Shown piece by piece: positions 204-49,660 of a DNA stretch of 64,000 nucleotides. Source of the DNA: a virus. Position numbers and translations under genes: made by a program. Below the pieces are notes generated by a model. It saw only the letters and a program-made list of their open reading frames with translations, did not search any database and was not told where the DNA came from. The DNA lies in IMG/VR virus record IMGVR_UViG_3300024261_002043, positions 32,001 through 96,000 of that record; one strand, given 5' to 3'. How positions within the stretch are numbered: the stretch's first letter is position 1; every line of letters starts with the position of its first letter.

Positions 204-2027
204 TTATGAACGATCGATAGCAGATACAAGATCTTCGTAAACAAGAGCAAACGAGAATTTAAGCTCGTTGGTTCCTGAAACTGCATAATCAACAGTAGCA
301 GCAGCTCTATCTGTTTCGCTACCAGACTTCATAAGCTGTCCGTTAACATAGACATCTAGCTTATTAGGTCCTACAGCCGTACTAAACGAGGAAACATCAC
401 CAGCTAGTTTGGTGAGTGTTACCGCGGTACCAGCGCTTGTGGTTTCTGCGATAGAACCTGAGAACAACGTTGGCTCTCCGGATGTAACGCTTGAGAACAA
501 GGTATTAATAGCGCCTAAGACAGAAGTCGAGGTACTAAAGTTGCTGATGTACGTTGACGCCTCGGAACTACTAGGAGTTTCGAAAAGTAATGCTTGAGCA
601 TTTACACCGGCTAGCGCCGCTATCGCAGAGAAAGCGAACGTTCCATCGGTTTGAATACCAACACTCTGAGAACCGTCAAGGAAGACAGGTCCTGCAGCAG
701 CAGCGATACCAACGTTTGTAGCACCAGACAACATAAGTCCTGCAGCTGATGTCTTAATTACAGATTGTGCACCTGCTGTGACATCAAAAGAACCAGAGGC
801 AGCAACATCCATACCAGTTGAACCGTCGTGTGTAAACGTGACATCTTCACCATCACCGAAAGCCAAGACACTAGAGTCATCTTCAAGGTGAACCTTAGGG
901 GTATCGAGGAGAACCTCGGTAGAAGCCTCAAGCTCAATAGTCGGAGCAACAGGCTTCAACAAGGTTCCAGCTGCAAGATCGAGTTGACCATCAGCAGATG
1001 AAGAAATTGATTCAGCACCGTCAGCTTGAACAAACGCAAGCTTGTCTTCGCCACCAGCAAGCACAAGACCAACACCATCTGCATGAGTCAACGTTGTTGC
1101 AGCATCAGCACCGAATGACAGTGTTTGAGAGTCAACAGGCATTGTAATATTACCTGCAGAGCCACCGATCTTTAATAATGATGTACCGGCACTCTTAATT
1201 TGAGTCTCAGTACTACCAAACTTGGTGTCCAGTATAATTGCAGCACCAGAAGATGCACCACCCTTAACTGCAACAGCGTTAACGGCGTCGATGATGACAC
1301 CACCACTACCATCAAAAGGGTTACCACCGGTTGAACCAGAACTCTGTAGGAGTAAAATACCGTGTGCCGATGCAACATTTAGACCGGCTGATGCACCACC
1401 TTCTAGTTTGTTCGCATGAACAGATGACCATGATGCGTGACCGGATGTCGCTAAGGCACCGGGCGAGACATAGCCCTTTTGTGAGGCGCCTGATACACTC
1501 ATCGATTTGACGTGTGAATAACCCGGGGCGAACTTAACGAGGAGCGACGAGTCGCTTGAGCTGAATGCCGACGTCAATTCGAAAACAATATCGTTGCTGT
1601 CGCTGTCTCGAAGTACGATAAGAGTGCCCTTGGCTAATGACGATGGCGATGACCAGCTACTATTCTTCGTAAGACTGGTATCAGAATATGAGACCATGCT
1701 ATTATCGATGAAGTTTGAGACGGAGTTAATCGACCCGACTGTCAAACGACCTAAAGCCATTGCATCGTCAGATGTTGGTTTAAGGCTTACAAGGCCGTCA
1801 GACGACGCTGGCGACTTATACTCACCAGGCTCAACAGCACCGAATGCAACGTCACCAGACATATTTGAGAGTGCTTGGGCATAATATTTAAATATTTCCT
1901 GTGCACTTGGTATATTGCCCTCGCTAAGGGAGGCAATTGCAGTACCCTTCGCTAGCGAAGTAGGCTTCATATCTGTTAATGAGCCTGTAATTTGTTGTAA
2001 TCTAATCTGTGTTCTAGACTTAGACAT
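204..2027 (-). CDS. Virion structural / fibre-like protein
   Basis: S/G/T/A-rich beta-type sequence; C-terminal LDVYVNGQL..SGS..DY domain shared with 2561-3451; start moved to ATG 2027 (GAGGA SD). Confidence 0.7.
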   Translation of the reverse strand: MSKSRTQIRLQQITGSLTDMKPTSLAKGTAIASLSEGNIPSAQEIFKYYAQALSNMSGDVAFGAVEPGEYKSPASSDGLVSLKPTSDDAMALGRLTVGSINSVSNFIDNSMVSYSDTSLTKNSSWSSPSSLAKGTLIVLRDSDSNDIVFELTSAFSSSDSSLLVKFAPGYSHVKSMSVSGASQKGYVSPGALATSGHASWSSVHANKLEGGASAGLNVASAHGILLLQSSGSTGGNPFDGSGGVIIDAVNAVAVKGGASSGAAIILDTKFGSTETQIKSAGTSLLKIGGSAGNITMPVDSQTLSFGADAATTLTHADGVGLVLAGGEDKLAFVQADGAESISSSADGQLDLAAGTLLKPVAPTIELEASTEVLLDTPKVHLEDDSSVLAFGDGEDVTFTHDGSTGMDVAASGSFDVTAGAQSVIKTSAAGLMLSGATNVGIAAAAGPVFLDGSQSVGIQTDGTFAFSAIAALAGVNAQALLFETPSSSEASTYISNFSTSTSVLGAINTLFSSVTSGEPTLFSGSIAETTSAGTAVTLTKLAGDVSSFSTAVGPNKLDVYVNGQLMKSGSETDRAAATVDYAVSGTNELKFSFALVYEDLVSAIDRS

Positions 2028-2156
2028 AATGTTTTTCCTCTTGCACAAAAATGTGCGTTATTTTTTAGGACAAACCGAAAATAAAACTAACGAACAAAAT
2101 AAACGGATTATATAATAAACTAACTAACGGATCGCGCTGCTCTCACAGCGGTAATT

Positions 2157-3454: not shown

Positions 3455-6400
3455 TTAGCTCCATGATATACTCATCTGTGATATATTACCTGTCCAGCTT
3501 GCATCAGCCTCAATTTTTACCACTATATACTCATTAGCGCCTGCTGATTGCGTCCCGAACGTGCCGGCATTGGATGCATTTAAAGAAGAATCAAGTGAAC
3601 CGTTAAGACAACCGTCACCATCGCTTACTTGTCCGGTAGCAAAAGCCTTTGCAAGATCCATCCACCCTGTAGAAAACGAAGATGATGTTTCCGGAAGCTT
3701 TACTAGTACGTGCACATTTGAAGTAGATAAAGACGTCCCTTGCTCGACTATCGTACCTGAACCATTTAAGGTCAATATAAAGTCTGTCTTAGACCCTCCG
3801 GACGTGTTTTGAAAATATCTATAAAATGTTCTTAAGCCAGATGATATCGTTGAATAGTCCACATTGCTACTAGGCCCGTTCGCTATAGATCCACCATCGG
3901 ATGTGTTCCTAAAATCTCCTGAAACAGCACCTTGGCGAGGAGCACGTAATGCGCTGTTATAAAATAGCAGACCGTTTAAAGACAGCAAACTTGTGGAAGA
4001 GTTCCATACAGCTCCTGAATCTGTTACGGCAGCTTGATTGTCGTAGCTTCCTGAGGCTCTTCTATAACTTTCGCCCCTAAACGGTTCGGATGTTGTTGTA
4101 GCAGTATCGGAAAGATTATACAATAATATTCCTGATATTGATTGTGAACCAGCGCTAGATAAGCTTGACTTAAGAGGAGCAGGTACGTTTACAGATACGG
4201 ATATTGATTGGTTTAGCAAAGGATCTGTATTAATAGTTGCAGATCCTGTTATTTGAAGAAGCTTAGATTCATCTTCCCCAGCACCGTGATTGATTGTTGG
4301 AAATGCTTGCGCAGGAGTAGAACAGTTTGTCCCCGTGAATGTTATATTGTTTGAAGAATAGACATTTCTGTATGCGTTTAGGGCACGCACACGGTATTGT
4401 GCTGTACCAGCAGTGTGATATGTAACACCTGACAATTGCTTAGTACCTGTCATCGACAGTCCATCAAACACCGAATTATCTGCTGACAGCGCATTAGAAT
4501 TAGAATCATTTACCCATTCTACGTAGTTACATGTTGTACTTGTGCTGCCTATAGTATGTACAACCCTAGCATAATTCCAGCCGTTTGCTTGATCTGTCGT
4601 TGCTATTGTGTATGTTCCTGTCCTGTGCTTAAACGTAGAAAATGAAGAGCCATCTGCAAAAGCTCCATTAGTAACGGCAGATAAATTAAATCCCGAACCG
4701 TTAGAGTTTAAGCTATTACCTGAACCGAATGAGCTTAGGTCAACAGAGTGCTTTTCAGTTGAATTATTATTTACGAACAGCTTAAGTGTTCCTTGGTCTC
4801 CGTTTCCGAATGCGCCTACAGCAAAGTTAGGGCTGTCCGGTGAGATATCTGCGTTGAGCGTACCATCTATAACTGTAGCGCCGTTAAGGCATGCAACACG
4901 AACATCATTACCAGAAGTTGTAGATGCATATGATCCATTTATATCTACATTTGACAAGCTACTAGCTGGTGTTAACGTCGATGGTAGAACGTTTGTATAT
5001 CCAGATATTGATTGTGTAGAGCCAAAAGATAAATTTGCCGTCGTTCCTGAGTCTGAGCAACTCATATCATCTAAATTTGGAGCAGCAGAAGGAGCTAATC
5101 CTTTTAAAACCTCGTTAAACCTATCCACGGCGGTCCCCACAGGTGTTTGTGTAGTGAAGTCGGTAAACAACCCATCGGAGTAGCTACCATCCTCTGCTGT
5201 CCCGATTGTACCGGTTAGAGCTATGTCTCCAGAACCGTATGAGTTTAATATAGCAAGGTTTGTTACATCTACCTTGTCTATACTATTTACGGTAGTTGAC
5301 CCAGAAACAAAGTCAATAGCTGTGCCACCTCCGGCGTCACCCGTAAATTTACCATCTGATGCGTATGCAGTAAAACCAGTTGTATTTACAGAAGTAGACA
5401 GTGTATTATCAGAGTACATGGCGAAAGTATTACCGCTTAAGACATCAGCATAGTATTCATTGCCGTTTACTTCTGTCATCCCAACAACGCTTGTTAACGT
5501 TACACCTTGCCCTTCGCTTAAGTTGTGGTTTAACACAGTCGTAACAACACCTGGATTAGCTTGCGTTATGTTTGATATTGATCCTGTTACAGCACCAGAT
5601 CCACCCGCAGCGTCTATTGTTATAGATTTGTCGGAGTTTGTTGTCAAAGTTATGTTTGTACCGGCTTTTAAGTTTGTTTCAACCGTAACAGCAGATGAAC
5701 CGTCAAAAGATAAGGACTTTATTCCAGGACCATTTGTTAATGAATTAGGTACTTTTTTAACTTCGATATCTCCAGACCCATCTAGACCGATTGTATCGTT
5801 GTCATATTGTACGGCTATCGTAGCGGGGTTTGAGTTACCAGCAAATGAGATATCAATGCCAGCACCCTCAGCCATTATCGCAGTTCTGTCTACTATGTCA
5901 GCTAAGCTCGCTATAGATGTTTTTGATACACTAGATAAGCTTGTATTATCAGCTGTTACTACAAAGTGGTTTCTATTAGCAGCGACCGTAGATAGATTTG
6001 TCATATCAACTGAAACTGTTTTTGCTGTTGAGCCGTTGTAACTAAGTGTTCCAATTCCTGGACCGTTTGTTAAAGCTCCTGGTGATGTTGAGGAAGCCGC
6101 AAGTGTTATTTGTCCGGTTGTCGGCGTATTGTAAGATACTGTTATATTTGTTCCACCAACAAGGTAAGGTACACCAGCAGAAGCCTCGTCGTGTTTTGCT
6201 ATTATTGTACCAAAAGTAGTCGTGCCAGAGAATGTGGACGCACCCGAAAACGTATTATCACCTGTTAGCGTATTATTACCAGCTAACGTGGGTATAACTG
6301 ATGTGTCAACAGATAGTGTGGAATCAGCAGCGGCGTTATACGCCGAACCAACAGAATATGTTAGTCCTGTCCCTGATGATAACGAATAACTAGACCCTAA

Positions 6401-7213
6401 GTCTGCAAACTTTTGAGCAAGGATCTTTCTTGTTGCTGATGCAGTTGCATCATATATTAATACGTAGTCCGCAGAACCTTGTAGCGTTGTTGTCGCAACA
6501 GCAGAATTAGGATCTACTAATAATCCTCCGCCTGTACCGGTACCACCAGATATCCCTAGACCACTGTTGGTCGCTAAAGTTACATCTATTGTTTTTGGTG
6601 CTGAATTATTATAAGGGGTATTCGTTAGTCCATCACGAAATGTGATAGGGTTCCCAAGCGATGTCATGGTGGCAGCAGCAGACATTAAATTGTTTACTGA
6701 TATCTTTTTTACATCTCTTGAATTACCGGTGTCACTTGTATCGTGAATAAGAAGATAGTCATCTGAAGCCGGTGTTGCTGATAACTCAGATGCTTGTGTT
6801 GGATTAATTGCTAGACCAAACGAGGTAAGCTCAAGACCGGTGCTTGTAAATAAGTCAATCTCGACCGTAGCGGTAGAAGACCCATCATAGGTAAAGGAGG
6901 TTATACCTCCTGACGCGTTTCCAGACAGTACGGCGCCAGCTCCAACGGTAGCAGATATTGTTATACCACCTGTCACATCCTCCGTTACAGTTACAGATCC
7001 AGAGCCTTTGACATATGCAGAGCCTTGTTTGTCTACTAGCCTACCATCTAGCTGTGCTGAACCTTTTACTATGAGGGAGCTTTTAAATTCATCGTCATCT
7101 AGACCGATCTGGAATGTATGAGGTGTTGCAACCTTGACGACGTTCTTGTTAGTCGACTGCCTTAGAACAAGAAAATCCTGGTTTCTTAGGTCTGTTCTTT
7201 TTCCTTGACTCAT
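3455..7213 (-). CDS. Tail fibre-like structural protein with internal repeats and an E1-FCCH-like domain
   Basis: Repeats LTNGPGI..LS(Y/F)(N/D)GS and DY(L/V)LI.D; ISNITQANPGVVT..HNL..GMTEVNG..TTGFTAY segment. Confidence 0.75.
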   Translation of the reverse strand: MSQGKRTDLRNQDFLVLRQSTNKNVVKVATPHTFQIGLDDDEFKSSLIVKGSAQLDGRLVDKQGSAYVKGSGSVTVTEDVTGGITISATVGAGAVLSGNASGGITSFTYDGSSTATVEIDLFTSTGLELTSFGLAINPTQASELSATPASDDYLLIHDTSDTGNSRDVKKISVNNLMSAAATMTSLGNPITFRDGLTNTPYNNSAPKTIDVTLATNSGLGISGGTGTGGGLLVDPNSAVATTTLQGSADYVLIYDATASATRKILAQKFADLGSSYSLSSGTGLTYSVGSAYNAAADSTLSVDTSVIPTLAGNNTLTGDNTFSGASTFSGTTTFGTIIAKHDEASAGVPYLVGGTNITVSYNTPTTGQITLAASSTSPGALTNGPGIGTLSYNGSTAKTVSVDMTNLSTVAANRNHFVVTADNTSLSSVSKTSIASLADIVDRTAIMAEGAGIDISFAGNSNPATIAVQYDNDTIGLDGSGDIEVKKVPNSLTNGPGIKSLSFDGSSAVTVETNLKAGTNITLTTNSDKSITIDAAGGSGAVTGSISNITQANPGVVTTVLNHNLSEGQGVTLTSVVGMTEVNGNEYYADVLSGNTFAMYSDNTLSTSVNTTGFTAYASDGKFTGDAGGGTAIDFVSGSTTVNSIDKVDVTNLAILNSYGSGDIALTGTIGTAEDGSYSDGLFTDFTTQTPVGTAVDRFNEVLKGLAPSAAPNLDDMSCSDSGTTANLSFGSTQSISGYTNVLPSTLTPASSLSNVDINGSYASTTSGNDVRVACLNGATVIDGTLNADISPDSPNFAVGAFGNGDQGTLKLFVNNNSTEKHSVDLSSFGSGNSLNSNGSGFNLSAVTNGAFADGSSFSTFKHRTGTYTIATTDQANGWNYARVVHTIGSTSTTCNYVEWVNDSNSNALSADNSVFDGLSMTGTKQLSGVTYHTAGTAQYRVRALNAYRNVYSSNNITFTGTNCSTPAQAFPTINHGAGEDESKLLQITGSATINTDPLLNQSISVSVNVPAPLKSSLSSAGSQSISGILLYNLSDTATTTSEPFRGESYRRASGSYDNQAAVTDSGAVWNSSTSLLSLNGLLFYNSALRAPRQGAVSGDFRNTSDGGSIANGPSSNVDYSTISSGLRTFYRYFQNTSGGSKTDFILTLNGSGTIVEQGTSLSTSNVHVLVKLPETSSSFSTGWMDLAKAFATGQVSDGDGCLNGSLDSSLNASNAGTFGTQSAGANEYIVVKIEADASWTGNISQMSISWS

Positions 7214-36148: not shown

Positions 36149-36171
36149 AAATTAACCTACGTTTATTCTTT

Positions 36172-36200: not shown

Positions 36201-36208
36201 ACCTTGCT

Positions 36209-37525: not shown

Positions 37526-37527
37526 TG

Positions 37528-38409: not shown

Positions 38410-38415
38410 TTGATA

Positions 38416-39585: not shown

Positions 39586-39586
39586 C

Positions 39587-40342: not shown

Positions 40343-41114
40343 TGTGTTTATAACCTTTTTCCTTAGTCTGCCATTCCCATATTAATTTTTCCCTGTCACC
40401 TGTAACGATACCTGATGCTTTAAACATATTATAGTACCAGTCTGCAAGTAATACAGGCACCCTAGCGTCATAATCATCACTCTTCTTTTGAGTGTAATCA
40501 ACCAAGACTTCTGACAGATTCGCGAATGTAAAATGTGGAAAAGCCCTAAACCATAAATGTAGATCTTCTGCTAAAGGAAATAAGCGCTCATACCCACCTA
40601 AGACGTTGATCAGTGATCTTGAAAAAACGACAGAAGGATGGCAGATTTGATTTTGACCATACAAAAAGCCTTTCTTAATACCAGCATCTTCTAGCTGGTA
40701 TTTTACTGCTTTTCCGAATGTCCCTAATTCTTGAATATTCGAATCTTCGTCTAATAATCTTATTTGAGTACCCACTATATCGACATTCGGATTCTCTTTA
40801 AGAAAAGACATTTGTTTTTGTAGCTTCTCAGAATACCAAAAATCATCTCCATCTTGTCTAGCAATCCAATCACCAGTACAGCGGCGTAAACCAGTATTTA
40901 AGGCAGGTACGATGCCAGGATCTTTACACTCGACTATTTTTAGCTCAAAGCAATTAGAGAATTTTTTTGCTATGTCTATTGTTCTATCTGTGCAATTATT
41001 ATCTACAAGTATCACTTCAAAGTCTTTATACGTCTGGTCTGCTACTGATTGTAACGCTCTCTCAATCGTGGATTCGCAATTATAGGCGGGTATAATAACT
41101 GATACTTCTTTCAT
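40335..41114 (-). CDS. Glycosyltransferase family 2
   Basis: VSVIIPAYN, VDNNCTD, ARQDGDD, HPSV, AEDLHLW. Confidence 0.93.
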   Translation of the reverse strand: MKEVSVIIPAYNCESTIERALQSVADQTYKDFEVILVDNNCTDRTIDIAKKFSNCFELKIVECKDPGIVPALNTGLRRCTGDWIARQDGDDFWYSEKLQKQMSFLKENPNVDIVGTQIRLLDEDSNIQELGTFGKAVKYQLEDAGIKKGFLYGQNQICHPSVVFSRSLINVLGGYERLFPLAEDLHLWFRAFPHFTFANLSEVLVDYTQKKSDDYDARVPVLLADWYYNMFKASGIVTGDREKLIWEWQTKEKGYKHSG

Positions 41115-41115
41115 A

Positions 41116-43050
41116 CTAGCTTTCATCCTGCAATTTAATAAACTCTTCTGGGTGTGATCTTTCTATCGACATATGAGGTGTAGGCTTTGTAAAGTCTATT
41201 TTTTCATGAAAAATCCAGCCGCCCATTTCGCTGGCCAGCTTTTCTGACAATTCATCTATATCATTGTCAGTTACATCGCTCCATGCTTTGTCAAACATCA
41301 CATTGTTCTCCGCAGTATCCTCAGAGTCGTGCCTGTACTGACTCTTCCAAAATGATGCCCAATGCATCTTATATTGCTTTATTTTTTTAGAGATATCGTA
41401 CCAAGAATAATGATGTACACCTGGTATTGATGATATTACATGCTCAAACCAGTTTTCATACATAGTTAAAGCTTCACGATTACCAGCTAATGCAGCTACT
41501 CTTACATTATGGACTTCTTCATTATAGAACCCAACGTGCGGTAACCTTTCCCCAGTTTCAGCATGAATATAATCACACGTGTCTGTACCAGGGGCAGCAT
41601 AAATATTACCTGCGTCATCGAATCTCCTAAGCTCTATAGGGATACCTTGTGTGATGTGAGGCTTATTTCTACTTAGTCTCCACTTCCATGGATTAACGTC
41701 AACCCTAACTTTCTCTTTCGATCCCCAATATTCTATTACTGGAAGCGATAAGATGTCTGTTACAACAGGAAATGACCTCATCATATGGATAACTTTTTCG
41801 TAGTCTTCTTCGTGAACAATTTCATCAGCATCCATTTGCCAGCAAAATTCATTAGTGCATAAACTTCTAGCAGTAGCTTTAAGCTTACCGTCTGTTTCAT
41901 ACGCAAATGAAGGATGATCATCAGATACTTCAACCTGTTTAATTACAAGGCGAGACTCGCTTCTTGACCATTCCGATAGTTGACTCCAGGTATCATCAGT
42001 TGACCCACCGTCTACAACAACAACTTCATCGCAAAATTGAAGCATCGATCTGACTGTTGCTTTCCAAGGATACTTCATCTTATTAGCATTTCTCAAAGTA
42101 GTATATCCACTTAAGGTAGGCTTATGTCCATGGATAGACTTAATCGCTCTCCAAAATCTTTCACGAGCAGCGTATAGATAAGAAACCATATCTATATGAC
42201 TTCCTGTAAACCATTCTTCATTTGCATGCTGTACATGCTCATTCAATATTAGCTCACAACCTAACGCCTTTGCTTCGATTACCATTCTTGGGCATGTGTC
42301 TCCTCCACGTGGCAAGTAAACTAAACCTTTTGACTTTGAAAGTTTTTCTAACAACTCGTTATATGGTACATTCCACACGACCTCATATTCTAAATTGTTG
42401 GTCTTACAATGTAGCTCTGCATCTTCAAAACCTTTAATCCAAGATTTTGACCCTAATACTATCCATTTAGTTCGTTCGTCTTTAGACACTGGGTTTTGCT
42501 GGTTTTCATTTACCATAGCAAAAAATGAATTATCAAATACGCTGCTTAATACGACTGAATCATTTTTTAGTAAGAATGGAAATCTGTCGGTATATCTTTT
42601 TTCTTGGTCTTCACTCATAAACCATAAGCTTTTAGATCCATGAAAAAAAGCTGACATCATCTTTCCGTGAATTTGATCATGGCAGTCACAAGGTACACCA
42701 GCTTCTGCTTTATGCTTTTCAATACTTCTGTACTGACAAAATTTATAGTCGTATTCCACAACTGAATAGCTTAAATTTCCGATGATTGTTGGAAACAGAT
42801 TAGGGTTCATAGCAGTTGCGTTTGTAAAGACCCAGTGTTTATCAGCAGCTGACTTAAGCATAGCTAACGACACGTCTTTGGAGTGTACTTTTTGTACAGT
42901 TATATCAACTGCGGACTGAAATAATGCCTCGGTAGTTAACTCAGCACCGCCAACGTAATCTTCTACAAAATAGTCTGCTACAAAAATTACGTCAGCTTCT
43001 ATATCAACTGTTTTTGCAGTTACTGTATTCTCAAATGGACTCTTAAGCAT
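41116..43050 (-). CDS. Two-domain glycosyltransferase (GT-B/GT4-like N-terminus + GT2 C-terminus)
   Basis: GGAELT and DTCPRMVIEAKALGC in the first half; VVVDGGSTDDT and QMDADE in the second half. Confidence 0.85.
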   Translation of the reverse strand: MLKSPFENTVTAKTVDIEADVIFVADYFVEDYVGGAELTTEALFQSAVDITVQKVHSKDVSLAMLKSAADKHWVFTNATAMNPNLFPTIIGNLSYSVVEYDYKFCQYRSIEKHKAEAGVPCDCHDQIHGKMMSAFFHGSKSLWFMSEDQEKRYTDRFPFLLKNDSVVLSSVFDNSFFAMVNENQQNPVSKDERTKWIVLGSKSWIKGFEDAELHCKTNNLEYEVVWNVPYNELLEKLSKSKGLVYLPRGGDTCPRMVIEAKALGCELILNEHVQHANEEWFTGSHIDMVSYLYAARERFWRAIKSIHGHKPTLSGYTTLRNANKMKYPWKATVRSMLQFCDEVVVVDGGSTDDTWSQLSEWSRSESRLVIKQVEVSDDHPSFAYETDGKLKATARSLCTNEFCWQMDADEIVHEEDYEKVIHMMRSFPVVTDILSLPVIEYWGSKEKVRVDVNPWKWRLSRNKPHITQGIPIELRRFDDAGNIYAAPGTDTCDYIHAETGERLPHVGFYNEEVHNVRVAALAGNREALTMYENWFEHVISSIPGVHHYSWYDISKKIKQYKMHWASFWKSQYRHDSEDTAENNVMFDKAWSDVTDNDIDELSEKLASEMGGWIFHEKIDFTKPTPHMSIERSHPEEFIKLQDES

Positions 43051-43346: not shown

Positions 43347-46300
43347 CTATTCAGCTTCTAGAATCTCTATTCTTTGCTTTATTTCTTTAAGAGCGTTAAT
43401 TATGTATACACTAAGGGCATGATATGAAACACCTCGAAGCTTATCTGCTGGTAGGTCCCTACCAGTTACTAATTCAGGTATGACTGACTCAACTTCATCT
43501 GCTATTAGCCCAGGACTAAAGTGTGTACGATCATCAGGCTGATTAATATCTCTATACAGTCTAGGTATTAATTGGCAGATCTCGTCTAGTGAATTATTAA
43601 GGTCTTGAATGTCTTTCTTTCCTCGTCGATCAGACGTCCATCTTCTAATTTCACCATTGACATTTCCAACGGCAAGGTAATCATAAGCCCCGGCATCTGA
43701 AGTAGTTCTATCTCGCATCCAGTCAGATCTTACCGTTGAAGTTGAGCCAGAAAGAACCATCGCAACATCCGGGCTTACACCAGTTGAGGTTGAGGATTTA
43801 ACAGCAAAGTTAAGTTGCCCCTGAGCGTAGTTACCGCGGTCTACATAGATTAAACCAGCCCCAGTATTTCCGGCTGATGTACCAAATCCGATTCCTGCAG
43901 CTGAATGACTATCAAACGAGGTGTTTTGAAAGAACATATCAAAATATTCCGGCTTACCCCATGCACTTGCTCCCACCGTCTCACTAGGTAATGTTGCTAT
44001 CTGATCGTTTAGATAAAATGAAGTATTACCACCGGCGGCGCCGGCATCAACAAACTTAAAAGCCACAGATCCAGTCATGCCTAAAGAGCCAATTTCTAAA
44101 CGATCTACTGACACCGAGGTACCGGGTGTAGTTGTTCTTAATAATAAATTAGCACCGCTCTTTTTGACGCCCCCAGTTGTATCCCACGTTTCTGCGGTGA
44201 TGGCTTTGATTTGGGCGCCTGTATATACATCCCCTCCGGCAGCGTTAGTGGTTCCTCTAAAGTCCAGATTTGAAAGCTCGTCGCCACTGGACAAGTTACC
44301 GTCAGTAGGATTTCGTAAGAGCACTAATCTTGCTGGCGACGCCGCGACTGTACTAGTATGCGCAATTTGTGCATTTGGGCTTAAACTGTTCTTTACACTA
44401 AGTTTGTTATCTATATTTCCAGCACCGTCAAAGCTAAGAACAGTATTACCACCAGAGTCCTTTATATCGTCCCCGTTAATTCGTATATCGTTAGTGACCG
44501 TTAGCTCGTTTCCAACAGTTAGATTACCAACAGCTTCTATAGTTGAATCAGTCGGTGTTGCATTAGGGACAATAATAAGGTGGTCAACAGGTGTACCTTT
44601 AGAATTGATATCATTCCCGATAGTAAAATTTTGGTCTGGATGCCGCGACGTTAATATCCAACTATCACCAGCATCATCACTTTTATCTGCAGATAATGTT
44701 AATGTTGCATTTGCATCGTTGGTAGGTTGAACAACAATTAATGATCCTGAAACTGCCAGTTGCCCGGCTATATCAACATTCTTTGTTTGGTTTGGTATAG
44801 ACAGCACTTCTTCATTTAGCGTATTCCTAAGAGTGACATCGTTAGTTGTTCCGTCACCAGTTATAATGCAGCCGTCCACAGCGCTGTAGCCTATAGCAGC
44901 TACGTCAGAAGCGCTAGTATCTCCTCCTACTTGTACTTTACCTGTGAAAGAAGAATATAAAGCAGAGATCACTACAGCTATAGACTTGCTCGCAGCGCCG
45001 GTAGGGGTTACACCAAGTCGAATATTTGTCCCCTCTGCACTGCCGTGTGTCCAGGTTTCTGCCGCGTACGCTTCGACATGTGCTGTATTTGAATATACTA
45101 CGCCGCTATCTTTACCACCAAAGGAATATCGACCTATACCATCTCCGGATGCTACATTGACCTTGGAATGAAACACTCCAATTTCCATAGGGTCGGTCTC
45201 TGATGCTTCATTTCTTAAGTAGAACTGGTTTATATCTGTCCCGGTGATGCTGTGATGAGTTGTATTATAAGATAGATCAGTACCATCAGAAAAGCTTATC
45301 TTATTACCGCTGATTGATAGCTCGTTTCCAACAGTTACGTCACCAGCAAAAACTGCGCCAGGCTCAACCGATGATCCGTCATCACTAAGAGTTAATGCCG
45401 AACGAAATGCATTTACACTAGCTCCAGATGCAGCACCTCTTCTGGCAACTTGAAAAGTTAGTGAGCCACCAACTCCATCGCCTGTACTTTGTCCTGCGCC
45501 TACCGTTAAGCTTTTTCCTGCTTGATCAGTCCCTGCAATTGCGTCAATAGTTATTGAAGAGTTGGTTGTGTTGGTTAACTCTACGTTTCCTTTTAAGCGC
45601 GTCGACCCAGTAACATGAAGTCCTGATCTTGCTGCTACAACCTGCTCGAATCTTGTTTGGACAAAAGCGCTTTCCCCACCCCCTCCGCCTGGAAACAGAG
45701 TAACATGTTTATTACCAGAACTTACATCATTATCGTATAAGCCTCCAGCAACGAAAAAATGTCCAGCAGTACCAACCTGTCCGCCGCCTGTGCTATTCAT
45801 TAACAAAGAATACGGAGAGACAGCAGCTGCTGTGAACTGAATATTTTCACCTGCAGAAACCTCTAAAGCCTCTTCTGCTGTTATAAGCAAATCTCCGTCA
45901 GTACCACCGACACCCGATTCTCTTTGTATAAATGATGAAGCGTTGCCAAAGTATAGGGTCGAGGTTCCGGTTGGAGACGCAACATTCTCACCAATCATAA
46001 CGGCTTTACTAGCACCTTGTACATGCAGATCAACCGCAGGAGATGAAAGCTCTGCATCTCCGCCGATACCGACTGCACCATTCTTCATATGCATAGTGTT
46101 AAAGTAATCCACACCAGCAGCTTTAGTTCCAAACCGTACTCTCCTATCTGAAGCACCACCTTCCCAAATAATCGATGCCATATTAGAGTCATCTGTACCA
46201 AGGTTAACGTAAGCGTTTGTATTGACAACGCTAAACCTTGTGTTCGTAGCATCGTCTGTCAAAGATAAGTCACCACCAATAGCAAACGTAGTGTTAGGTG

Positions 46301-46415
46301 CGCTTGACATACCGATACCAATCTTAGGTCCTACTGCGTCACGCGATGCGGTGACGAATAAATGGTCACCTGTGCTAGACCTTAATTCCAAAGATCCTGT
46401 TGTGTAAATCGACAT
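43347..46415 (-). CDS. Tail fibre/spike protein with C-terminal intramolecular chaperone (peptidase S74)
   Basis: Fibre-type repeats (KIGIG, GAVGIG); C-terminal TSDRRGKKDI...GLIADEV...YHAL..ALKEIKQRIE. Confidence 0.88.
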   Translation of the reverse strand: MSIYTTGSLELRSSTGDHLFVTASRDAVGPKIGIGMSSAPNTTFAIGGDLSLTDDATNTRFSVVNTNAYVNLGTDDSNMASIIWEGGASDRRVRFGTKAAGVDYFNTMHMKNGAVGIGGDAELSSPAVDLHVQGASKAVMIGENVASPTGTSTLYFGNASSFIQRESGVGGTDGDLLITAEEALEVSAGENIQFTAAAVSPYSLLMNSTGGGQVGTAGHFFVAGGLYDNDVSSGNKHVTLFPGGGGGESAFVQTRFEQVVAARSGLHVTGSTRLKGNVELTNTTNSSITIDAIAGTDQAGKSLTVGAGQSTGDGVGGSLTFQVARRGAASGASVNAFRSALTLSDDGSSVEPGAVFAGDVTVGNELSISGNKISFSDGTDLSYNTTHHSITGTDINQFYLRNEASETDPMEIGVFHSKVNVASGDGIGRYSFGGKDSGVVYSNTAHVEAYAAETWTHGSAEGTNIRLGVTPTGAASKSIAVVISALYSSFTGKVQVGGDTSASDVAAIGYSAVDGCIITGDGTTNDVTLRNTLNEEVLSIPNQTKNVDIAGQLAVSGSLIVVQPTNDANATLTLSADKSDDAGDSWILTSRHPDQNFTIGNDINSKGTPVDHLIIVPNATPTDSTIEAVGNLTVGNELTVTNDIRINGDDIKDSGGNTVLSFDGAGNIDNKLSVKNSLSPNAQIAHTSTVAASPARLVLLRNPTDGNLSSGDELSNLDFRGTTNAAGGDVYTGAQIKAITAETWDTTGGVKKSGANLLLRTTTPGTSVSVDRLEIGSLGMTGSVAFKFVDAGAAGGNTSFYLNDQIATLPSETVGASAWGKPEYFDMFFQNTSFDSHSAAGIGFGTSAGNTGAGLIYVDRGNYAQGQLNFAVKSSTSTGVSPDVAMVLSGSTSTVRSDWMRDRTTSDAGAYDYLAVGNVNGEIRRWTSDRRGKKDIQDLNNSLDEICQLIPRLYRDINQPDDRTHFSPGLIADEVESVIPELVTGRDLPADKLRGVSYHALSVYIINALKEIKQRIEILEAE

Positions 46416-49400
46416 TATTCTATATCCTCCAGCGGAGTAAGTCCCATTTTGTATTTTTTGCCTGTTAAATTATTAACCACCACCAACATATCGGGTTCCT
46501 CATATATCGTCCAGTTGCCGCGCTCATTCTTGAGGTGTAAGTCTCCAGTGTATACGTTCGCCCATCTGTGATCTGGTGACCCAAGACTGTAAGTACTATT
46601 AGCTCCAGGAAGCATGCTTCCCGTCATTGCTAAATGACCAGTACCGCCTCCAGCTTCTAATATGATTACACCATTAGATTCAGCATTCTTTAATTTCAGT
46701 TTCTCAACTGAATCTTCTAAAAATCCATGGATCGTTCTGTTGGTGCTCTTTAACGCGATGGTATTGTTACTGTCCATTTGCAGAGTACCATACGCAGTCA
46801 TATATTTTGTACTAGAGATATCTAAAGCTGTTTGACCACCGGACCCAACCTTAAATGACATACCGACATTTTTTGCGCTGATGTCTACTCTTGTGGATCC
46901 TGGATCTACTAACTCTATACTACCTGTAACTGCTAGCGCTGTCGCTCCTGTTCCGGATGAAGCTCCAACCTGCAGTGGTATTGAATTAGCGGTACCAGGA
47001 GGAGTTAGGGTATAGGGGTTTTGAATTCTCAGTGCGCCAGATACCACCATATCTCCACCGAATACTGCGACCCCTCTTTCTACTGTTCCTATTCCTAAGT
47101 CTTCTCTACTATCTATTGCTCCGCTTACGAAGAAGAAGACATCCTTACCAATTTGGTTTGTTCGTCTAGCTACATAGCCGTCTGTCTTACGATCATGGTC
47201 AAACGAAAAAGATCCTGTCGAAGCGATATATGATAGATAGGGAACACTACCATCTTGATGTGTAACAGCGAATACATCTGAATTGTCTGTTACGCTTAGC
47301 GCCGCTAGCTGTGTTAATGTATATGGTGAGCTTGGTGATGCAGTATCAGAAAACTCTAAGTGGTTACCAGATGTCCTTCTAATTTGTACATCAGAATCTC
47401 TAAATCTTAAATAGGGTTCATTGGCAGTAGCACTACTTAGTGTAAGATTTGCTATGTCTAGAGCTGTGACAGAAAATGTACCTTCCAACGCCGTATTACC
47501 AGAAACAACAAGATCACCGGAGACAAGTGTAACACCTCTAGTATTTGAATCTTTAGTCCCAACCGTACCGCTTAATATTGTACGTACGTCTCTGTGCCTA
47601 TTAGCAGTAAACAGACCGGGTAGCTCAGAAAGCGCTGAGCCTACGCTAATGTAACCTTCTCGAATTCCGGTGCCATTAAATTGGTCACTTGCTGATAAGA
47701 CAAGCACTGGACCGCCTACCAGCTCTTCAGAAGAAGCGCTTAATATAAGTCCTGATTCTTCACCAACGTGAGTCGCACCAATGTTAACACCTCTTGACCC
47801 CGTAACACATAATCCTTCTGAATCATTCGCTGAGAATATGTAATGCGCGCTCGTCTGGAATCTAACCTTGGCGTTAGTCCCAGTATCACCGATGACTAAT
47901 ACACCACCAGCATCAGCATGTTGAAGTCTTAACTGATCGGAGAAAGACTTGATCTGCTGTGTCTTTGATCCCCCTTGTCCGTCGAAGTATAGTGCTGTGT
48001 CATCTGCTATTTCAACTCCCCGCACTCCGGACGCGTTGGGAGTTAGGAATATAGATCCATCGTCATTCTGGATTTTTAGTTCAGTTGCACCGGAATTTAT
48101 AGAGGCAGTTACGAATGTATTTGTAAATCCGCTACCGGTTCTGTTTTTGAATATGAGTCCGGCTGCTTGAATATTTACAGGTTGAGCAGCGTCTATACTT
48201 GTAATCGCGCCGTCTTGGACATCCATGTACCCTGCTCTAAATGCTCCAGGAGCCGCAGTACCTTCCGCAGTACCAAAAACAAGCGCGTTATTATTGATAG
48301 TAGAACCTGATGCGATTGCGATACCACCCTTGGTGCTATTAGTCGTCGACCCGGAAGCTAAAATAATTAAGGCATCTTTGACTCTAAGATTTTCGGTACC
48401 AATAGTTGTTACTGAGCCTGATACATTCAAGTCACCAACGACAGTTAGGTTCTTATCAAAAGTTGCATTACCTGAACCGCTAAGGTGTAAAGCTAGGACG
48501 CCATCAGCGCCCTTTATATCTTGACCGTTTATCTGTATGTCACCAGCAATAATAGTTGGAAGAACAGAGCCTCCAAGCGTGATCGCTGTATTACCGTCTG
48601 AACCCTTTATATCACTTCCCATGACTGTAAGATCACCTGCGATCAGTACATTATCATCGGTGTCCATAGTAATTGTGCTGCCGCCATCTGAAGCTTTTAT
48701 TATGTTACCGGCTACTGTAAGGTTTCCAGTCGTTGTAACATCACCACCAGCGCCTAATGTTATATTCGTACCAGCTGAACCTTTAATGTCATTACCAGTA
48801 ACTGTAAGATCACCAGAAACTGAGACATCACCTGAAGCACCTAAAGTTAAGTTAGTGCCAGCTGAGCCTTTTATATCATTTCCGACAACAGTTAGATCAG
48901 CTGCCAAGGAAACATTCTGGTCGACATCCATCGAAATAGTGATCTCACCTTCACTATTCTTTATATCATTACCATTTATTTGAAGGTCACCACCGATAGT
49001 AAAGTCACCCGGCACGGTGAATATAGATAACGGAGATAAGCTAAAGTTACCAGACACATGAACATCACCATCAAATAATGCTAACCCTCTATCATTTGAG
49101 TCCTTAACTCCCCTTGAGCCTGATACATGAAAGAAGACATCCTTATGTGTAGTTGGAAATTGCGTAGCGTATGCGTATACACCGGCGACGCCTTGTACCA
49201 TATTAAAAGATATAGTACCGTCTCTATTAGCTGAGGGATTACTGGTTGTCGGGTCGACGAGTATTCTGGCATATCCAGTCGTATAATCCTCTGGCGTGGT
49301 TTTTATTCCACCGATTACTTTATTAAACGCCTTAAAGTCACCCGGGACGGCGTCATCTACTTCTATTACAGACCGTTCAGACCATAGTGTACCACTGACT

Positions 49401-49660
49401 ACGACGTCACCCCCGAACAGTACAGTACTACCGTCGGCTCTGTTCCAGGCCTCAACAGCAGAATTCGCAGCGCCATCGAAGTACAGCCATACATCGTTAC
49501 CAACCTTTGTCGTATCAAGGCCTGTAGTTAAGCCATCATAGTTCGCGGCTTTTGAACCACTGTAAAACATGAGGTTCAAATTCTTCTTACCAGGGACCAC
49601 TGATCCGGTACCAATAATAGCTCTTGTTCTTACTCTATCTGATCTAAAATCTTTTGCCAT
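46415..49660 (-). CDS. Tail fibre protein with tandem and dispersed repeats
   Basis: Six GDL(T/Q)(V/I).G.DIK repeats; C-terminal YSLGSPDHRWANVYTGDLHL..RGNWTI.E..NNLTGKKYK fibre end. Confidence 0.8.
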   Translation of the reverse strand: MAKDFRSDRVRTRAIIGTGSVVPGKKNLNLMFYSGSKAANYDGLTTGLDTTKVGNDVWLYFDGAANSAVEAWNRADGSTVLFGGDVVVSGTLWSERSVIEVDDAVPGDFKAFNKVIGGIKTTPEDYTTGYARILVDPTTSNPSANRDGTISFNMVQGVAGVYAYATQFPTTHKDVFFHVSGSRGVKDSNDRGLALFDGDVHVSGNFSLSPLSIFTVPGDFTIGGDLQINGNDIKNSEGEITISMDVDQNVSLAADLTVVGNDIKGSAGTNLTLGASGDVSVSGDLTVTGNDIKGSAGTNITLGAGGDVTTTGNLTVAGNIIKASDGGSTITMDTDDNVLIAGDLTVMGSDIKGSDGNTAITLGGSVLPTIIAGDIQINGQDIKGADGVLALHLSGSGNATFDKNLTVVGDLNVSGSVTTIGTENLRVKDALIILASGSTTNSTKGGIAIASGSTINNNALVFGTAEGTAAPGAFRAGYMDVQDGAITSIDAAQPVNIQAAGLIFKNRTGSGFTNTFVTASINSGATELKIQNDDGSIFLTPNASGVRGVEIADDTALYFDGQGGSKTQQIKSFSDQLRLQHADAGGVLVIGDTGTNAKVRFQTSAHYIFSANDSEGLCVTGSRGVNIGATHVGEESGLILSASSEELVGGPVLVLSASDQFNGTGIREGYISVGSALSELPGLFTANRHRDVRTILSGTVGTKDSNTRGVTLVSGDLVVSGNTALEGTFSVTALDIANLTLSSATANEPYLRFRDSDVQIRRTSGNHLEFSDTASPSSPYTLTQLAALSVTDNSDVFAVTHQDGSVPYLSYIASTGSFSFDHDRKTDGYVARRTNQIGKDVFFFVSGAIDSREDLGIGTVERGVAVFGGDMVVSGALRIQNPYTLTPPGTANSIPLQVGASSGTGATALAVTGSIELVDPGSTRVDISAKNVGMSFKVGSGGQTALDISSTKYMTAYGTLQMDSNNTIALKSTNRTIHGFLEDSVEKLKLKNAESNGVIILEAGGGTGHLAMTGSMLPGANSTYSLGSPDHRWANVYTGDLHLKNERGNWTIYEEPDMLVVVNNLTGKKYKMGLTPLEDIE

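What the first reader, a model, noticed from the sequence alone, without database searches (positions are those of the whole stretch)
204..49660. Recurring [S/T]-G-S motif marks outer virion proteins: candidate sequon for a phage virion glycosylation system
Seen (hand counts of [ST]GS): 15 in the 1174-aa wedge protein (15 of its 22 GS dipeptides), 12 in the 1081-aa fibre, 5 in the 523-aa protein (5 of 7 GS), 3 in the 322-aa protein, 8 in the 2167-aa protein, and 5 each in the 1022-aa fibre and the 204-2027 protein. Most follow a hydrophobic residue (LSGS, VTGS, MSGS, FSGS), variants LTAS/VSAS/LSSS are common, and the motif often sits near the N-terminus (MSIYTTGSL, MADSDRVLSGSL, ..QQITGSL). 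There are none in the gp6-like, gp25-like and spike proteins, or in PrkA, SpoVR, PhoH and DinG. The 1252-aa fibre is not clearly enriched for its composition. The motif occurs in unrelated folds, so it is not a domain repeat. Inference: it is a recognition sequon for post-translational modification, most simply Ser/Thr O-glycosylation by the glycan island sitting between these genes, giving a glycan-coated virion. Phosphorylation or a structural beta-turn preference are alternatives.
Basis: partly seen in the sequence, partly recalled or inferred. Interest (0 to 1): 0.85.

Follow-up and report, generated by a model that had tools for sequence, protein, structure and literature searches.

The report
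Ser/Thr-Gly-Ser tag on phage tail proteins
Several outer tail proteins of this uncultured marine T4-like phage carry the ordered tripeptide Ser/Thr-Gly-Ser about six times too often, at conserved beta-strand corners; most phages that share this also share an unusual pair of sugar-transferase genes, so it may mark where the phage attaches sugars to its own particle, but nothing here shows an attached sugar.

Summary
All hand counts reproduce. In a scan of all 8000 tripeptides in the 110-kb genome, SGS and TGS rank first and second. Anagrams (GSS, SSG) sit near expectation, codons are diverse, and local shuffles keep the signal. Six proteins carry it (51 observed, 7.8 expected): the 1174-, 1081-, 523- and 322-aa proteins, plus a 795-aa and a 442-aa protein just outside the window. 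The 1252-, 1022- and 614-aa proteins are not significantly enriched, and the N-terminal bias is not significant.

The sites are conserved across hundreds of relatives. They lie at beta-strand/loop junctions on canonical LamG glycines. The flanking serines are not a fold requirement. The signal recurs in cultured Flavobacterium phage immuto, Microcystis phage Mel-JY01 and Rhodothermus phage RM378. All three share a rare GT4 glycosyltransferase pair, found in 7 of 50,697 phage records. The signal is absent in T4 and weak in a cyanomyovirus. One GT4-bearing jumbo phage has few motifs.

Best reading (about 0.4): a structure-directed O-glycosylation tag. Main rival (about 0.33): a clade-specific structural turn motif. 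Earlier notes of this scan reported the same signal in at least 97 other genomes.

The parts
14706..18230 (-). 1174-aa outer baseplate protein with LamG/pentraxin-type jelly-roll domains; 15 [ST]GS motifs
   Evidence: 15 observed vs 1.8 expected. Pfam Laminin_G_3 39.6 bits, above cutoff. PDB profile and fold matches to LamG/pentraxins. About 8-10 sites are conserved in the family, depending on the threshold. AF2 model pLDDT 80.5 places the sites at strand/loop junctions.
18232..19803 (-). 523-aa baseplate protein next to gp6; 5 motifs (2-9 in homologues, mostly 4-8)
   Evidence: 5 vs 1.2, p about 0.01. Sites conserved in 22 homologues. AF2 model is of low confidence, pLDDT 60.6.
13733..14701 (-). 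322-aa protein; 3 motifs, two near the N-terminus and conserved
   Evidence: 3 vs 0.46, p about 0.01. Positions 9 and 21 are kept in 4 of 4 homologues.
46415..49660 (-). 1081-aa fibre; 12 motifs in fibre-shaft contexts (hydrophobic-x-hydrophobic-[ST]GS-hydrophobic)
   Evidence: 12 vs 2.6, p<0.0005.
7233..13736 (-). 2167-aa structural protein; borderline here (8 motifs) but often clearly enriched in relatives
   Evidence: 8 vs 4.1, p 0.04-0.05. Several homologues have 8-11 vs 1.8-2.8; many other homologues have only 2-4.
43347..46415 (-). 1022-aa fibre with a C-terminal Peptidase_S74 chaperone domain; not significantly enriched
   Evidence: 5 vs 2.6, p 0.1. Pfam hit.
3455..7213 (-). 1252-aa fibre; not enriched
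   Evidence: 5 vs 5.1, p 0.6.
204..2048 (-). 614-aa protein; not significantly enriched
   Evidence: 5 vs 2.5, p 0.05-0.1.
19811..24324 (-). gp6-like wedge protein, gp25-like protein and 608-aa spike-position protein; motif-free internal controls
   Evidence: 0 motifs each. PHROG baseplate wedge hits. gp6 has 0 in all but two of the relatives' homologues.
26919..28181 (-). GT4b: candidate initiating glycosyltransferase (GT-B, GT4)
   Evidence: Pfam Glycos_transf_1 54.9 bits. EX7E (E288..E296) at least 95% conserved, plus KTGG and NRN..RK elements. 61-67% identical across the clade. Homologues in only 7 of 50,697 phage records.
25737..26915 (-). GT4a: second, more divergent GT4-like protein, always paired with GT4b
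   Evidence: Pfam Glycos_transf_1 30.1 bits. E-x7-D at the EX7E position. A GT4 gene is present in 73 of 73 loci with enough flank.
28256..29140 (-). PD-(D/E)XK nuclease, conserved neighbour of the GT4 pair
   Evidence: Pfam PDDEXK_1 70.6 bits. Same adjacency in immuto, near-adjacent in Mel-JY01 (one gene inserted), and in many loci.
29184..43050 (-). Variable sugar island: Gmd, PseB-like dehydratase, epimerase, DegT aminotransferase, methyltransferases, one GT11, four GT2; all soluble
   Evidence: Pfam hits. No integral membrane protein; only one weak hydrophobic peak, in the DegT aminotransferase. Gmd occurs only in close relatives.

Best explanation
The consensus hydrophobic-[S/T]-[G>A,S]-S-hydrophobic is a recognition tag at beta-strand/loop junctions of the outward-facing baseplate and fibre proteins. 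A phage-encoded, cytoplasmic glycosyltransferase reads it on folded or folding proteins and O-glycosylates a serine. The most likely enzyme is the conserved GT4b, with GT4a as partner or second transferase. The most likely acceptor is the almost invariant third-position Ser. The variable soluble enzymes of the adjacent island (GDP-fucose and amino-deoxy-sugar synthesis, methyltransferases, GT2/GT11) would then extend the sugar into a lineage-specific glycan, giving a sugar-coated tail.

Shown: the enrichment, its order specificity, its conservation, its position at strand corners, the dispensability of the flanking Ser for the fold, the restricted distribution of the GT4 pair, and its co-occurrence with the motif.

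Inferred: that any sugar is attached, which enzyme does it, and which serine is the acceptor.
For: 1. SGS and TGS are the two most over-represented of 8000 tripeptides. The six enriched proteins have 51 vs 7.8 expected, and 59% of their GS dipeptides follow S/T vs 19% expected. Anagrams are near expectation and codons are diverse.

2. The signal is selected for. Motif serines are conserved at 0.81-0.85 vs 0.49-0.51 for other serines. The p1174 family averages 9.1 vs 1.7 over 108 cluster representatives. It persists in loci whose GC ranges from 31 to 60%.

3. It is not a fold requirement. In the solved LamG relative 4qvs the family's IGSGS and LSGSlDE align to IGKSH and LHGMID. Motif-poor family members keep the Gly but have D/N/A/E flanks.

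4. It occurs in several non-homologous contexts (LamG corners, fibre shafts, a low-confidence N-terminus) and recurs in the fibre and tail proteins of immuto, Mel-JY01 and RM378, some of them without detectable homology to the window's proteins. This points to a factor acting in trans.

5. Those phages and the window's clade share the GT4 pair. It is present in 73 of 73 loci with sufficient flank and in only 7 of 50,697 phage records. T4 lacks both the pair and the motif: SGS 13 vs 10.5, TGS 2 vs 9.7.

6. GT4b keeps its catalytic signature and is more conserved than gp6.

7. No island protein is an integral membrane protein. Digested immuto DNA showed only dA, dC, dT and fdPreQ1, and no glycosylated base was reported (PMC10516641).

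8. In the pLDDT 80.5 model, most structured sites lie at hairpin turns or strand boundaries. This is the geometry that the Aah/TibC protein O-heptosyltransferases recognise. Those enzymes are Ser-specific and modify many sites per substrate (PMC3835316, PMC4358343).
Against: - No chemistry: nothing here shows a sugar on a protein.
- The GT4-motif co-occurrence is confined to one deep clade, so it is close to a single evolutionary event.
- LR756508 has a GT4b homologue, but its p523 and p1174 homologues have 0 and 2 motifs.
- In immuto, Mel-JY01 and RM378 the PD-(D/E)XK-GT4b-GT4a unit lies among replication genes.
- In motif-poor lineages position 1 is replaced mainly by Asn/Asp, as expected for a structural ST/Asx turn cap.
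- Sites are positionally very stable, like structural residues.
- Cyanomyovirus S-BM3, which lacks GT4b, shows a mild excess of SGS and SGT.
- L147/L103 shows 15 motifs without a visible GT4 in the 1.27 kb upstream.
Confidence: 0.4

Rival explanations
1. Purely structural motif. [S/T]-G-S is a clade-specific way of building beta-strand corners: an ST-turn cap, then a Gly with a left-handed conformation, then a small Ser that starts the next strand. It occurs in LamG-type jelly-rolls and fibre shafts. It is inherited and spread by recombination among tail genes, with no modification. The GT4 pair has an unrelated job.
For: - Sites coincide with canonical LamG glycines.
- They lie at hairpin turns and strand boundaries.
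- They are positionally conserved like structural residues.
- In motif-poor lineages position 1 becomes Asn/Asp, the structurally equivalent caps. S/T/N/D together make up about 64% of those cells.
- Fibre-shaft contexts such as LTVSGSLIV look like ordinary fibre repeats.
- S-BM3 shows a mild generic SGS/SGT excess without GT4b.
- LR756508 has GT4b but few motifs.
Against: - The fold tolerates other flanks, yet motif-rich members use S/T 617 times vs D/N 25 times at position 1, although D/N are equally good caps.
- The third position is Ser far more often than Thr or Ala (495:65:53), although Thr suits strand starts.
- The same order-specific excess appears in different structural contexts and in phages of three host phyla, from a thermophile to cold seawater and from GC 31 to 60%.
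- T4 tail proteins built from comparable beta structures show none, and TGS is depleted there.
- Two conserved motifs lie in a low-confidence, probably disordered N-terminus, where no turn is predicted.
Confidence: 0.33
2. A tag for a different trans-acting partner. This could be another modification of serine (phosphorylation, phosphoglycosylation, acylation) or a docking motif for a tail-fibre chaperone or assembly factor shared by the clade. The sugar island would act on the host envelope instead.
For: - The evidence for a trans-acting factor is independent of which factor it is: multiple non-homologous contexts, clade-specific, order-specific.
- GT2/GT4 enzymes of envelope pathways are also soluble and could use host lipid carriers and flippases, so the absence of membrane genes does not exclude a cell-surface target.
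- The phage carries a PrkA-type module downstream.
Against: - No candidate kinase or chaperone was found to co-occur with the motif, whereas the GT4 pair does.
- PrkA-type genes were not seen in the annotation tables of immuto, RM378 or Mel-JY01.
- Dozens of sites per protein is unusual for a chaperone docking motif.
Confidence: 0.17
3. Statistical or compositional artefact: Ser-, Thr- and Gly-rich segments of fibre proteins generate SGS by chance.
For: The proteins are rich in S, T and G. Three of the listed proteins are indeed not enriched once composition is taken into account.
Against: - Local 10- and 20-residue shuffles keep p<0.0005 for the 1174-, 1081- and 795-aa proteins, and p 0-0.0005 for the 442-aa protein.
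- Anagrams of identical composition are two to three times rarer. In immuto they are at expectation while SGS ranks second.
- SGS and TGS top an unbiased list of 8000 tripeptides.
- The excess is reproduced in hundreds of homologues.
Confidence: 0.02

Closest known systems
Bacterial autotransporter heptosyltransferases (BAHT: Aah/AIDA-I, TibC/TibA)
   Same: A cytoplasmic GT-B enzyme O-glycosylates many serines of one beta-rich surface protein. [quoted passage not shown] It is Ser- and not Thr-specific, at sites such as N-S-G-G-A-V and T-S-A-A-V (PMC4358343). Here the motif lies at the same kind of junction, has an invariant Ser and a G/A next to it, and occurs 5-26 times per protein.
   Different: The phage enzymes are GT4 (Glycos_transf_1), not GT9-type heptosyltransferases. 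No iron-finger or dodecamer feature was tested or seen. The substrates are jelly-rolls and fibres, not beta-helical autotransporters. The sequence preference here is much tighter than in BAHT substrates. Modification is unproven.
Virion glycosylation of mycobacteriophages by phage-encoded glycosyltransferases (Freeman et al. 2023, Cell Host Microbe 31:1216; seen only in a reference list; details from my own knowledge)
   Same: Phage-encoded glycosyltransferases decorate the phage's own structural proteins in the host cytoplasm.
   Different: There, as I recall, capsid and tail-tube subunits are modified on C-terminal extensions of siphoviruses of actinobacteria. Here the capsid is not enriched (2 motifs in 657 aa). 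The candidates are baseplate and fibre proteins of T4-like myoviruses, and the sites are internal strand corners with a defined tripeptide. The paper could not be read here.
Chlorovirus capsid glycosylation and the putative virus GT4 enzyme B736L (PDB 3oy2)
   Same: A virus-encoded, host-independent, cytoplasmic glycosylation machinery. B736L is the best solved-structure match of GT4b.
   Different: The match is weak (E 3e-8) and covers only the generic C-terminal GT-B domain. To my knowledge chlorovirus glycans are N-linked at atypical sequons on the capsid protein of a eukaryotic virus.
ST-turn / Asx-turn plus glycine beta-hairpin corners (general protein structure)
   Same: Ser/Thr/Asn/Asp immediately before a Gly at a hairpin or strand start. 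Asn/Asp substitute at position 1 in motif-poor lineages.
   Different: Generic turns use N/D at least as often as S/T and do not fix Ser at the third position. The excess is clade-specific and absent in T4.

Membership tests
T4-like myovirus (distant, 'far-T4' group with immuto, Mel-JY01, RM378) | gp23-type capsid, gp20 portal, gp17 terminase, gp6/gp25 baseplate wedge | tested here: met
   Pfam Gp23 266.7 bits. PHROG portal, terminase and baseplate wedge hits. Nearest capsid proteins are those of immuto, Mel-JY01 and RM378.
LamG / ConA-like jelly-roll (Pfam Laminin_G_3), for the 1174-aa protein | Profile match above the curated cutoff and a matching fold | tested here: met
   39.6 bits vs cutoff 27.6. 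PDB profile hits to 4qvs, 4dqa and pentraxins. Foldseek hits to LamG/pentraxin domains with probability 1.00.
CAZy GT4-type retaining glycosyltransferase (GT-B), for GT4b | Glycos_transf_1 domain and a conserved EX7E motif | tested here: met
   54.9 bits vs cutoff 26.4. E288-x7-E296 conserved at 95% or more in 37 homologues.
CAZy GT4-type retaining glycosyltransferase (GT-B), for GT4a | Glycos_transf_1 domain and a conserved EX7E motif | tested here: inconclusive
   30.1 bits, just above the cutoff. E-x7-D instead of E-x7-E at the aligned position. No PDB sequence match.
BAHT protein O-heptosyltransferases (Aah/TibC) | Enzyme of the heptosyltransferase (GT9-like) family with an iron-finger | tested here: not met
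   Pfam scans of all island proteins gave only GT1/GT4, GT2 and GT11 families. No heptosyltransferase family was hit.
BAHT protein O-heptosyltransferases (Aah/TibC) | [quoted passage not shown] | tested here: met
   In the model, sites 218 and 254 are two-residue hairpin turns. Sites 281, 619 and 714 follow a strand. Sites 295, 685, 843 and 921 precede one. The baseline for such positions is 20%. Whether these serines are acceptors is unknown.
Phage virion glycosylation (mycobacteriophage type) | Phage-encoded glycosyltransferases present | tested here: met
   Seven GT genes in the window.
Phage virion glycosylation (mycobacteriophage type) | Glycan chemically demonstrated on virion proteins | not testable with these tools
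   Needs mass spectrometry or glycan staining of virions.
DNA base glycosylation (T-even type), as the target of the GT genes | Glycosylated nucleosides in phage DNA | tested here: not met
   For the cultured relative immuto only. LC-UV-MS/MS of digested DNA showed dA, dC, dT and fdPreQ1, and no glycosylated nucleoside was reported (PMC10516641). Not tested for the window's own phage.
Lipid-carrier-dependent surface polysaccharide pathway (Wzx/Wzy or ABC type) | Initiating phosphoglycosyl transferase, flippase or polymerase (integral membrane proteins) in the locus | tested here: not met
   No integral membrane protein in any island ORF. The only hydrophobic peaks are an N-terminal one in the 106-aa ORF beside the island and a weak one in the DegT aminotransferase. 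No such Pfam family was hit. Host-supplied components cannot be excluded.

The most novel reading that the evidence does not exclude
A major, mostly uncultured clade of T4-like phages infects Bacteroidota, Rhodothermus and Microcystis and is abundant in the ocean. These phages coat their baseplate and fibres with phage-made glycans through a Ser-specific, structure-directed O-glycosylation system. The conserved GT4b/GT4a pair would be the enzymes. The sequon, hydrophobic-[S/T]-[G/A/S]-S-hydrophobic, sits at beta-strand corners, with dozens of sites per protein. The variable sugar island would diversify the glycan.
Probability: 0.38. Interest if true: 0.8.

Novelty: new variant of a known kind. 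Interest (0 to 1): 0.6.

Why it matters
If the tag is a glycosylation site, it would be the first defined sequon for phage tail glycosylation. It would extend virion glycosylation from a few actinobacteriophages to a very large, environmentally abundant clade of T4-like phages. A sugar coat on the receptor-binding apparatus would bear on host range, resistance to proteases and grazing, particle stickiness in seawater, and the meaning of the 'LPS-like' sugar islands that are usually read as host-surface modification genes.

The question is directly testable, because three cultured phages (immuto, RM378, Mel-JY01) carry both the motif and the enzyme pair.

If the motif is only structural, it is still a clean, clade-wide signature. 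It is useful for recognising outer tail proteins of this group, and it is a curious example of a lineage-specific turn 'dialect'.

Tried and rejected
**Considered and rejected**
- A DNA-level word as the cause. Rejected: all Ser, Thr and Gly codons are used in the motifs.
- A composition or local low-complexity artefact. Rejected by local shuffles and anagram counts.
- N-terminal placement bias. Not significant.
- A single repeated domain. Rejected: the contexts are LamG corners, fibre shafts, tandem [ST]GSF blocks and a disordered N-terminus.
- DNA as the target of the GT genes. Made unlikely for immuto by published nucleoside analysis.

**Tried, with no result**
- Natural experiment with motif-poor p1174 lineages. 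The one metagenome scan and two viral-contig scans recovered only motif-rich relatives. A third viral-contig scan found only distant relatives, of which the one with a full-length homologue whose locus was not left out as a repeat of an identical protein (L064) was the least enriched (5 vs 1.5) and still had the GT4 pair.
- The specific-loss comparison suffers from ascertainment bias and is only suggestive.
- The genome search does not hold the records behind L156 and L147.
- LR756511 was tried as an in-clade GT4b-negative control but has no detectable gp6 homologue.
- The p523 fold was of low confidence.
- Model coordinates are not exposed, so solvent accessibility could not be computed.
- The Freeman et al. 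2023 paper is not held, and the Jabs preprint text is not held beyond the abstract.
- No close relative of the window exists in the phage collection at DNA level or for the 1174-aa protein.


Full report
**What the window is.** The window is bases 32001-96000 of a single 110.6-kb contig. Nearly all genes lie on the minus strand. It is a distant T4-like myovirus, with a gp23-type capsid protein, portal, large terminase, and gp6- and gp25-like baseplate wedge proteins. No close relative exists among 50,697 phage records at DNA level or for the 1174-aa protein. By capsid protein the nearest cultured phages are Flavobacterium phage immuto, Microcystis phage Mel-JY01 and Rhodothermus phage RM378.

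Read in the direction of transcription, the order is: fibres (1081 and 1022 aa), a 17-kb sugar island, small proteins, a 608-aa spike-position protein, gp25, gp6, then the 523-, 1174-, 322-, 2167-, 1252-, 296- and 614-aa proteins.

**Check of the observation.** Against composition-preserving shuffles the enrichment is:
- Very strong for the 1174-aa protein (15 vs 1.8) and the 1081-aa fibre (12 vs 2.6).
- Clear for the 523-aa (5 vs 1.2) and 322-aa (3 vs 0.5) proteins.
- Borderline for the 2167-aa protein.
- Absent for the 1252-, 1022- and 614-aa proteins.

Two more strongly enriched proteins lie just upstream of the window: 795 aa with 11 of 15 GS, and 442 aa with 5 of 8 GS.

In an unbiased list of all 8000 tripeptides, scored against each protein's own composition, SGS (56 vs 22.9) and TGS (43 vs 16.0) rank first and second in the genome. 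Shuffling within windows of 10 or 20 residues leaves the signal intact. Anagrams of the same residues are two to three times rarer: SGS 56, GSS 26, SSG 20. All codons for Ser, Thr and Gly are used within the motifs, so no DNA word underlies it.

Pooled results:
- The six enriched proteins have 51 motifs against 7.8 expected, and 59% of their GS dipeptides follow Ser/Thr against 19% expected.
- The other tail-region proteins have 30 vs 18.
- The rest of the genome has 18 vs 13.

The residue before the motif is hydrophobic in 54% of cases (background 32%). Leu is enriched at -3, hydrophobic residues at +3 and Thr at +4, which is a beta-strand signature.

**Conservation.** Scans of viral and metagenome contigs with gp6 and with 1174-aa homologues returned well over 200 related loci. 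Full-length homologues of the 1174-aa protein carry 5-19 motifs against 1.2-2.8 expected. Homologues of the 523-aa protein mostly carry 3-9 against about 1, and only 0-2 in the most distant ones. gp6 almost always has none.

An exhaustive profile-free search found 441 cluster representatives at E ≤ 1e-30. The 108 full-length representatives among the best 150 average 9.1 motifs against 1.7 expected, with SGS 669 vs GSS 162 and SSG 195. The motifs occupy fixed alignment columns. In the window protein's numbering these are 218, 281, 295, 337, 619, 685, 843 and 921, plus 38 and 46 among closer relatives.

Serines inside motifs are conserved at 0.81-0.85, against 0.49-0.51 for other serines in the same proteins. 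Across the family the three positions behave differently:
- The first position alternates between S and T.
- The middle position is G, less often A or S.
- The third position is almost always S (495 S, 65 T, 53 A).
- The next residue is often an invariant aromatic.

The excess persists in loci whose GC content ranges from 31% to 60%.

**Structure.** The 1174-aa protein matches Pfam Laminin_G_3 above the cutoff. A profile of the family hits LamG-type and pentraxin structures. The AlphaFold model (63-sequence alignment, mean pLDDT 80.5, pTM 0.69) matches LamG/pentraxin domains by Foldseek.

In the alignment to the solved relative 4qvs, the family's 'IGSGS' corresponds to 'IGKSH' and 'LSGSlDE' corresponds to 'LHGMID'. 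The Gly is the canonical LamG feature. The flanking serines are not.

In the model:
- Sites 218 and 254 are two-residue hairpin turns.
- Sites 281, 619 and 714 directly follow a strand.
- Sites 295, 685, 843 and 921 directly precede one.
- Sites 38 and 46 lie in the low-confidence N-terminus.
- Only the non-conserved site 403 lies inside a helix; the non-conserved sites 959 and 1091 lie in loops just after helices.

Such junction positions make up about 20% of the protein. The 523-aa model is too uncertain to use.

In fibres the motif lies in shaft-like contexts such as LNVSGSVTT and LAVSGSLIV. In immuto it also lies in tandem blocks of the form [ST]GSF[ST]GSF.GDGS.LTG. Several non-homologous contexts are therefore involved.

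**The sugar genes.** Window 25737-43050 encodes:
- two GT4 enzymes;
- a PD-(D/E)XK nuclease;
- GDP-mannose 4,6-dehydratase;
- a PseB-like dehydratase;
- an epimerase/reductase;
- a DegT-type aminotransferase;
- two methyltransferases;
- one GT11 and four GT2 enzymes.

None of these proteins is an integral membrane protein. Hydrophobicity analysis finds only one weak peak inside the island, in the DegT aminotransferase, plus an N-terminal peak in the 106-aa ORF just beside it.

Only the GT4 pair is conserved. The order GT4b-GT4a-p106-p242-p122-spike-gp25-gp6-p523-p1174 holds in the relatives. A GT4 gene is present in all 73 loci that have at least 1.5 kb upstream of p106/p242. The nuclease lies further upstream where the flank allows it to be seen. 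Gmd occurs only in close relatives.

GT4b is 61-67% identical across the clade, more than gp6 at 47-50%. It keeps the EX7E signature. GT4a is more divergent and has E-x7-D at that position. The best solved relative of GT4b is the chlorovirus enzyme B736L, but only through the generic C-terminal domain.

**Co-occurrence test.** GT4b homologues occur in only 7 of 50,697 phage records: immuto (four records), Mel-JY01, RM378 and the uncultured 484-kb phage LR756508. The same tripeptide scan gave:

| Phage | GT4b | Result |
|---|---|---|
| immuto | yes | GSF, SGS and TGS rank 1, 2 and 4. GSS and SSG at expectation. Tail spike 26 vs 5.9. A 373-aa protein with 12 of 12 GS in the motif |
| RM378 | yes | TGS and SGS rank 10 and 11 (24 vs 8.5; 28 vs 10.8), anagrams at expectation |
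| Mel-JY01 | yes | 1174-aa homologue 11 vs 1.4. A 718-aa fibre with 9 of 10 GS. 523-aa homologue with 4 of 4 GS |
| T4 (structural half) | no | SGS 13 vs 10.5, TGS 2 vs 9.7, no baseplate or fibre protein enriched |
| S-BM3 (cyanomyovirus) | no | Mild, less specific excess: SGS 37 vs 19.4, SGT 44 vs 20.1 |

LR756508 goes against strict coupling. It has GT4b, but its 523- and 1174-aa homologues have 0 and 2 motifs, and only one fibre has 3 of 4. L147/L103 shows 15 motifs with no GT4 visible in the 1.27 kb upstream of p242. All GT4b-positive phages belong to one deep clade, so the association is close to a single evolutionary event.

In immuto, Mel-JY01 and RM378 the nuclease-GT4b-GT4a unit lies among replication genes, not next to the baseplate. 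That raised the possibility of DNA glycosylation. However, published LC-UV-MS/MS of digested immuto DNA found only dA, dC, dT and fdPreQ1, and no glycosylated nucleoside was reported (PMC10516641).

**Motif-poor lineages.** Six family representatives have 0-3 motifs. They arise at least three times in the tree. One group is a well-supported clade of four, nested among members with 10-13 motifs. They keep the Gly in 77% of cells. They keep position-1 Ser/Thr in only 31%, against 61% for other conserved Ser/Thr columns. The replacements are mostly Asn and Asp.

This cuts both ways. It shows that the fold does not need the hydroxyl residues and that many sites can change together. But Asn and Asp are exactly the residues that can replace Ser/Thr as a turn cap. 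The comparison is also biased, because these sequences were chosen for having few motifs. Their genomic context, which would show whether the GT4 pair was lost, could not be obtained.

**Interpretation.** Artefact is excluded. Three readings remain.

1. *Glycosylation tag (about 0.4).* I favour this reading because the excess is order-specific and clade-specific, is shared by several non-homologous contexts, and is not required by the fold. That points to a factor acting in trans, and the only clade-specific candidate found is the GT4 pair, which sits beside a sugar pathway made of soluble enzymes. [quoted passage not shown] Membership of that family is not met, since the enzymes here are GT4.

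2. *Purely structural turn motif (about 0.33).* This is nearly as likely. The sites are canonical glycine corners, they are positionally stable, N/D substitute at position 1, LR756508 is a partial counter-example, and cyanophage fibres show a mild generic excess.

3. *Another partner, such as a different modification or a chaperone (about 0.17).*

The three readings are not fully exclusive. A structural corner may have been adopted as an acceptor site.

**Literature and earlier notes.** Searches of the held literature found no report of a tail-fibre glycosylation sequon or of this motif. Phage virion glycosylation is known from mycobacteriophages (Freeman et al. 2023, cited). That paper could not be read here.

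Earlier notes of this scan record the same signal in at least 97 other genomes, with similar verdicts. I used them only as leads. I took the two BAHT papers from them and read those myself. The claim in one note that a lineage lacking the island has lost the motif could not be tested here.

Noticed in passing
window 25737-29140; L158 964-4883 (immuto); L166 31375-36302 (Mel-JY01); L160 8212-11893 (RM378): The trio PD-(D/E)XK nuclease, GT4b, GT4a is conserved in the window's clade and in immuto and Mel-JY01; RM378 shows what looks like the same arrangement, but only its GT4b gene was confirmed by search. In those cultured phages it lies among replication genes. In Mel-JY01 a GuaB gene is inserted, and GT4b is annotated as two ORFs (190 and 302 aa).
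   Followed up: partly
genome 1396-3369 (L001:1396-3369, minus strand; outside the window): The 657-aa capsid protein matches gp23 profiles only over residues about 394-647. An N-terminal extension of roughly 390 residues is unexplained.
   Followed up: no
window 3455-7213 (minus strand), residues 553-624: The 1252-aa fibre hits the Pfam E1_FCCH domain of ubiquitin-activating enzymes (E 6.7e-10, 39.3 bits, above the cutoff). This is an odd domain for a phage fibre.
   Followed up: no
L156 (metagenome contig Ga0136555_1000018), 6479-18419: A very distant relative (gp6 32%, 1174-aa homologue 25% identical) still has 11, 14 and 12 motifs in three consecutive baseplate proteins. A 1406-aa ORF lies where the spike and GT4 genes lie in the other loci. 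Whether it has GT4 genes elsewhere is unknown.
   Followed up: partly
L238 (LR756508.1 84734-126623): A 484-kb uncultured phage with a GT4b homologue elsewhere in its genome has almost motif-free homologues of the 523- and 1174-aa proteins.
   Followed up: partly
L158/L159 (immuto 96965-100775 and 135031-136152): Tandem blocks of the form [ST]GSF[ST]GSF.GDGS.LTG recur in several immuto tail proteins, and GSF is the most over-represented tripeptide of that genome.
   Followed up: partly
window 43347-46415 (minus strand), residues 928-984: The 1022-aa fibre ends in a Peptidase_S74 intramolecular chaperone domain, so its C-terminus is probably auto-cleaved after trimer folding.
   Followed up: no
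window 52160-59887: Earlier notes of the scan report a yeaH-spoVR-prkA module here. I did not check the annotation. The large ORFs in this stretch carry 0-1 motifs.
   Followed up: no
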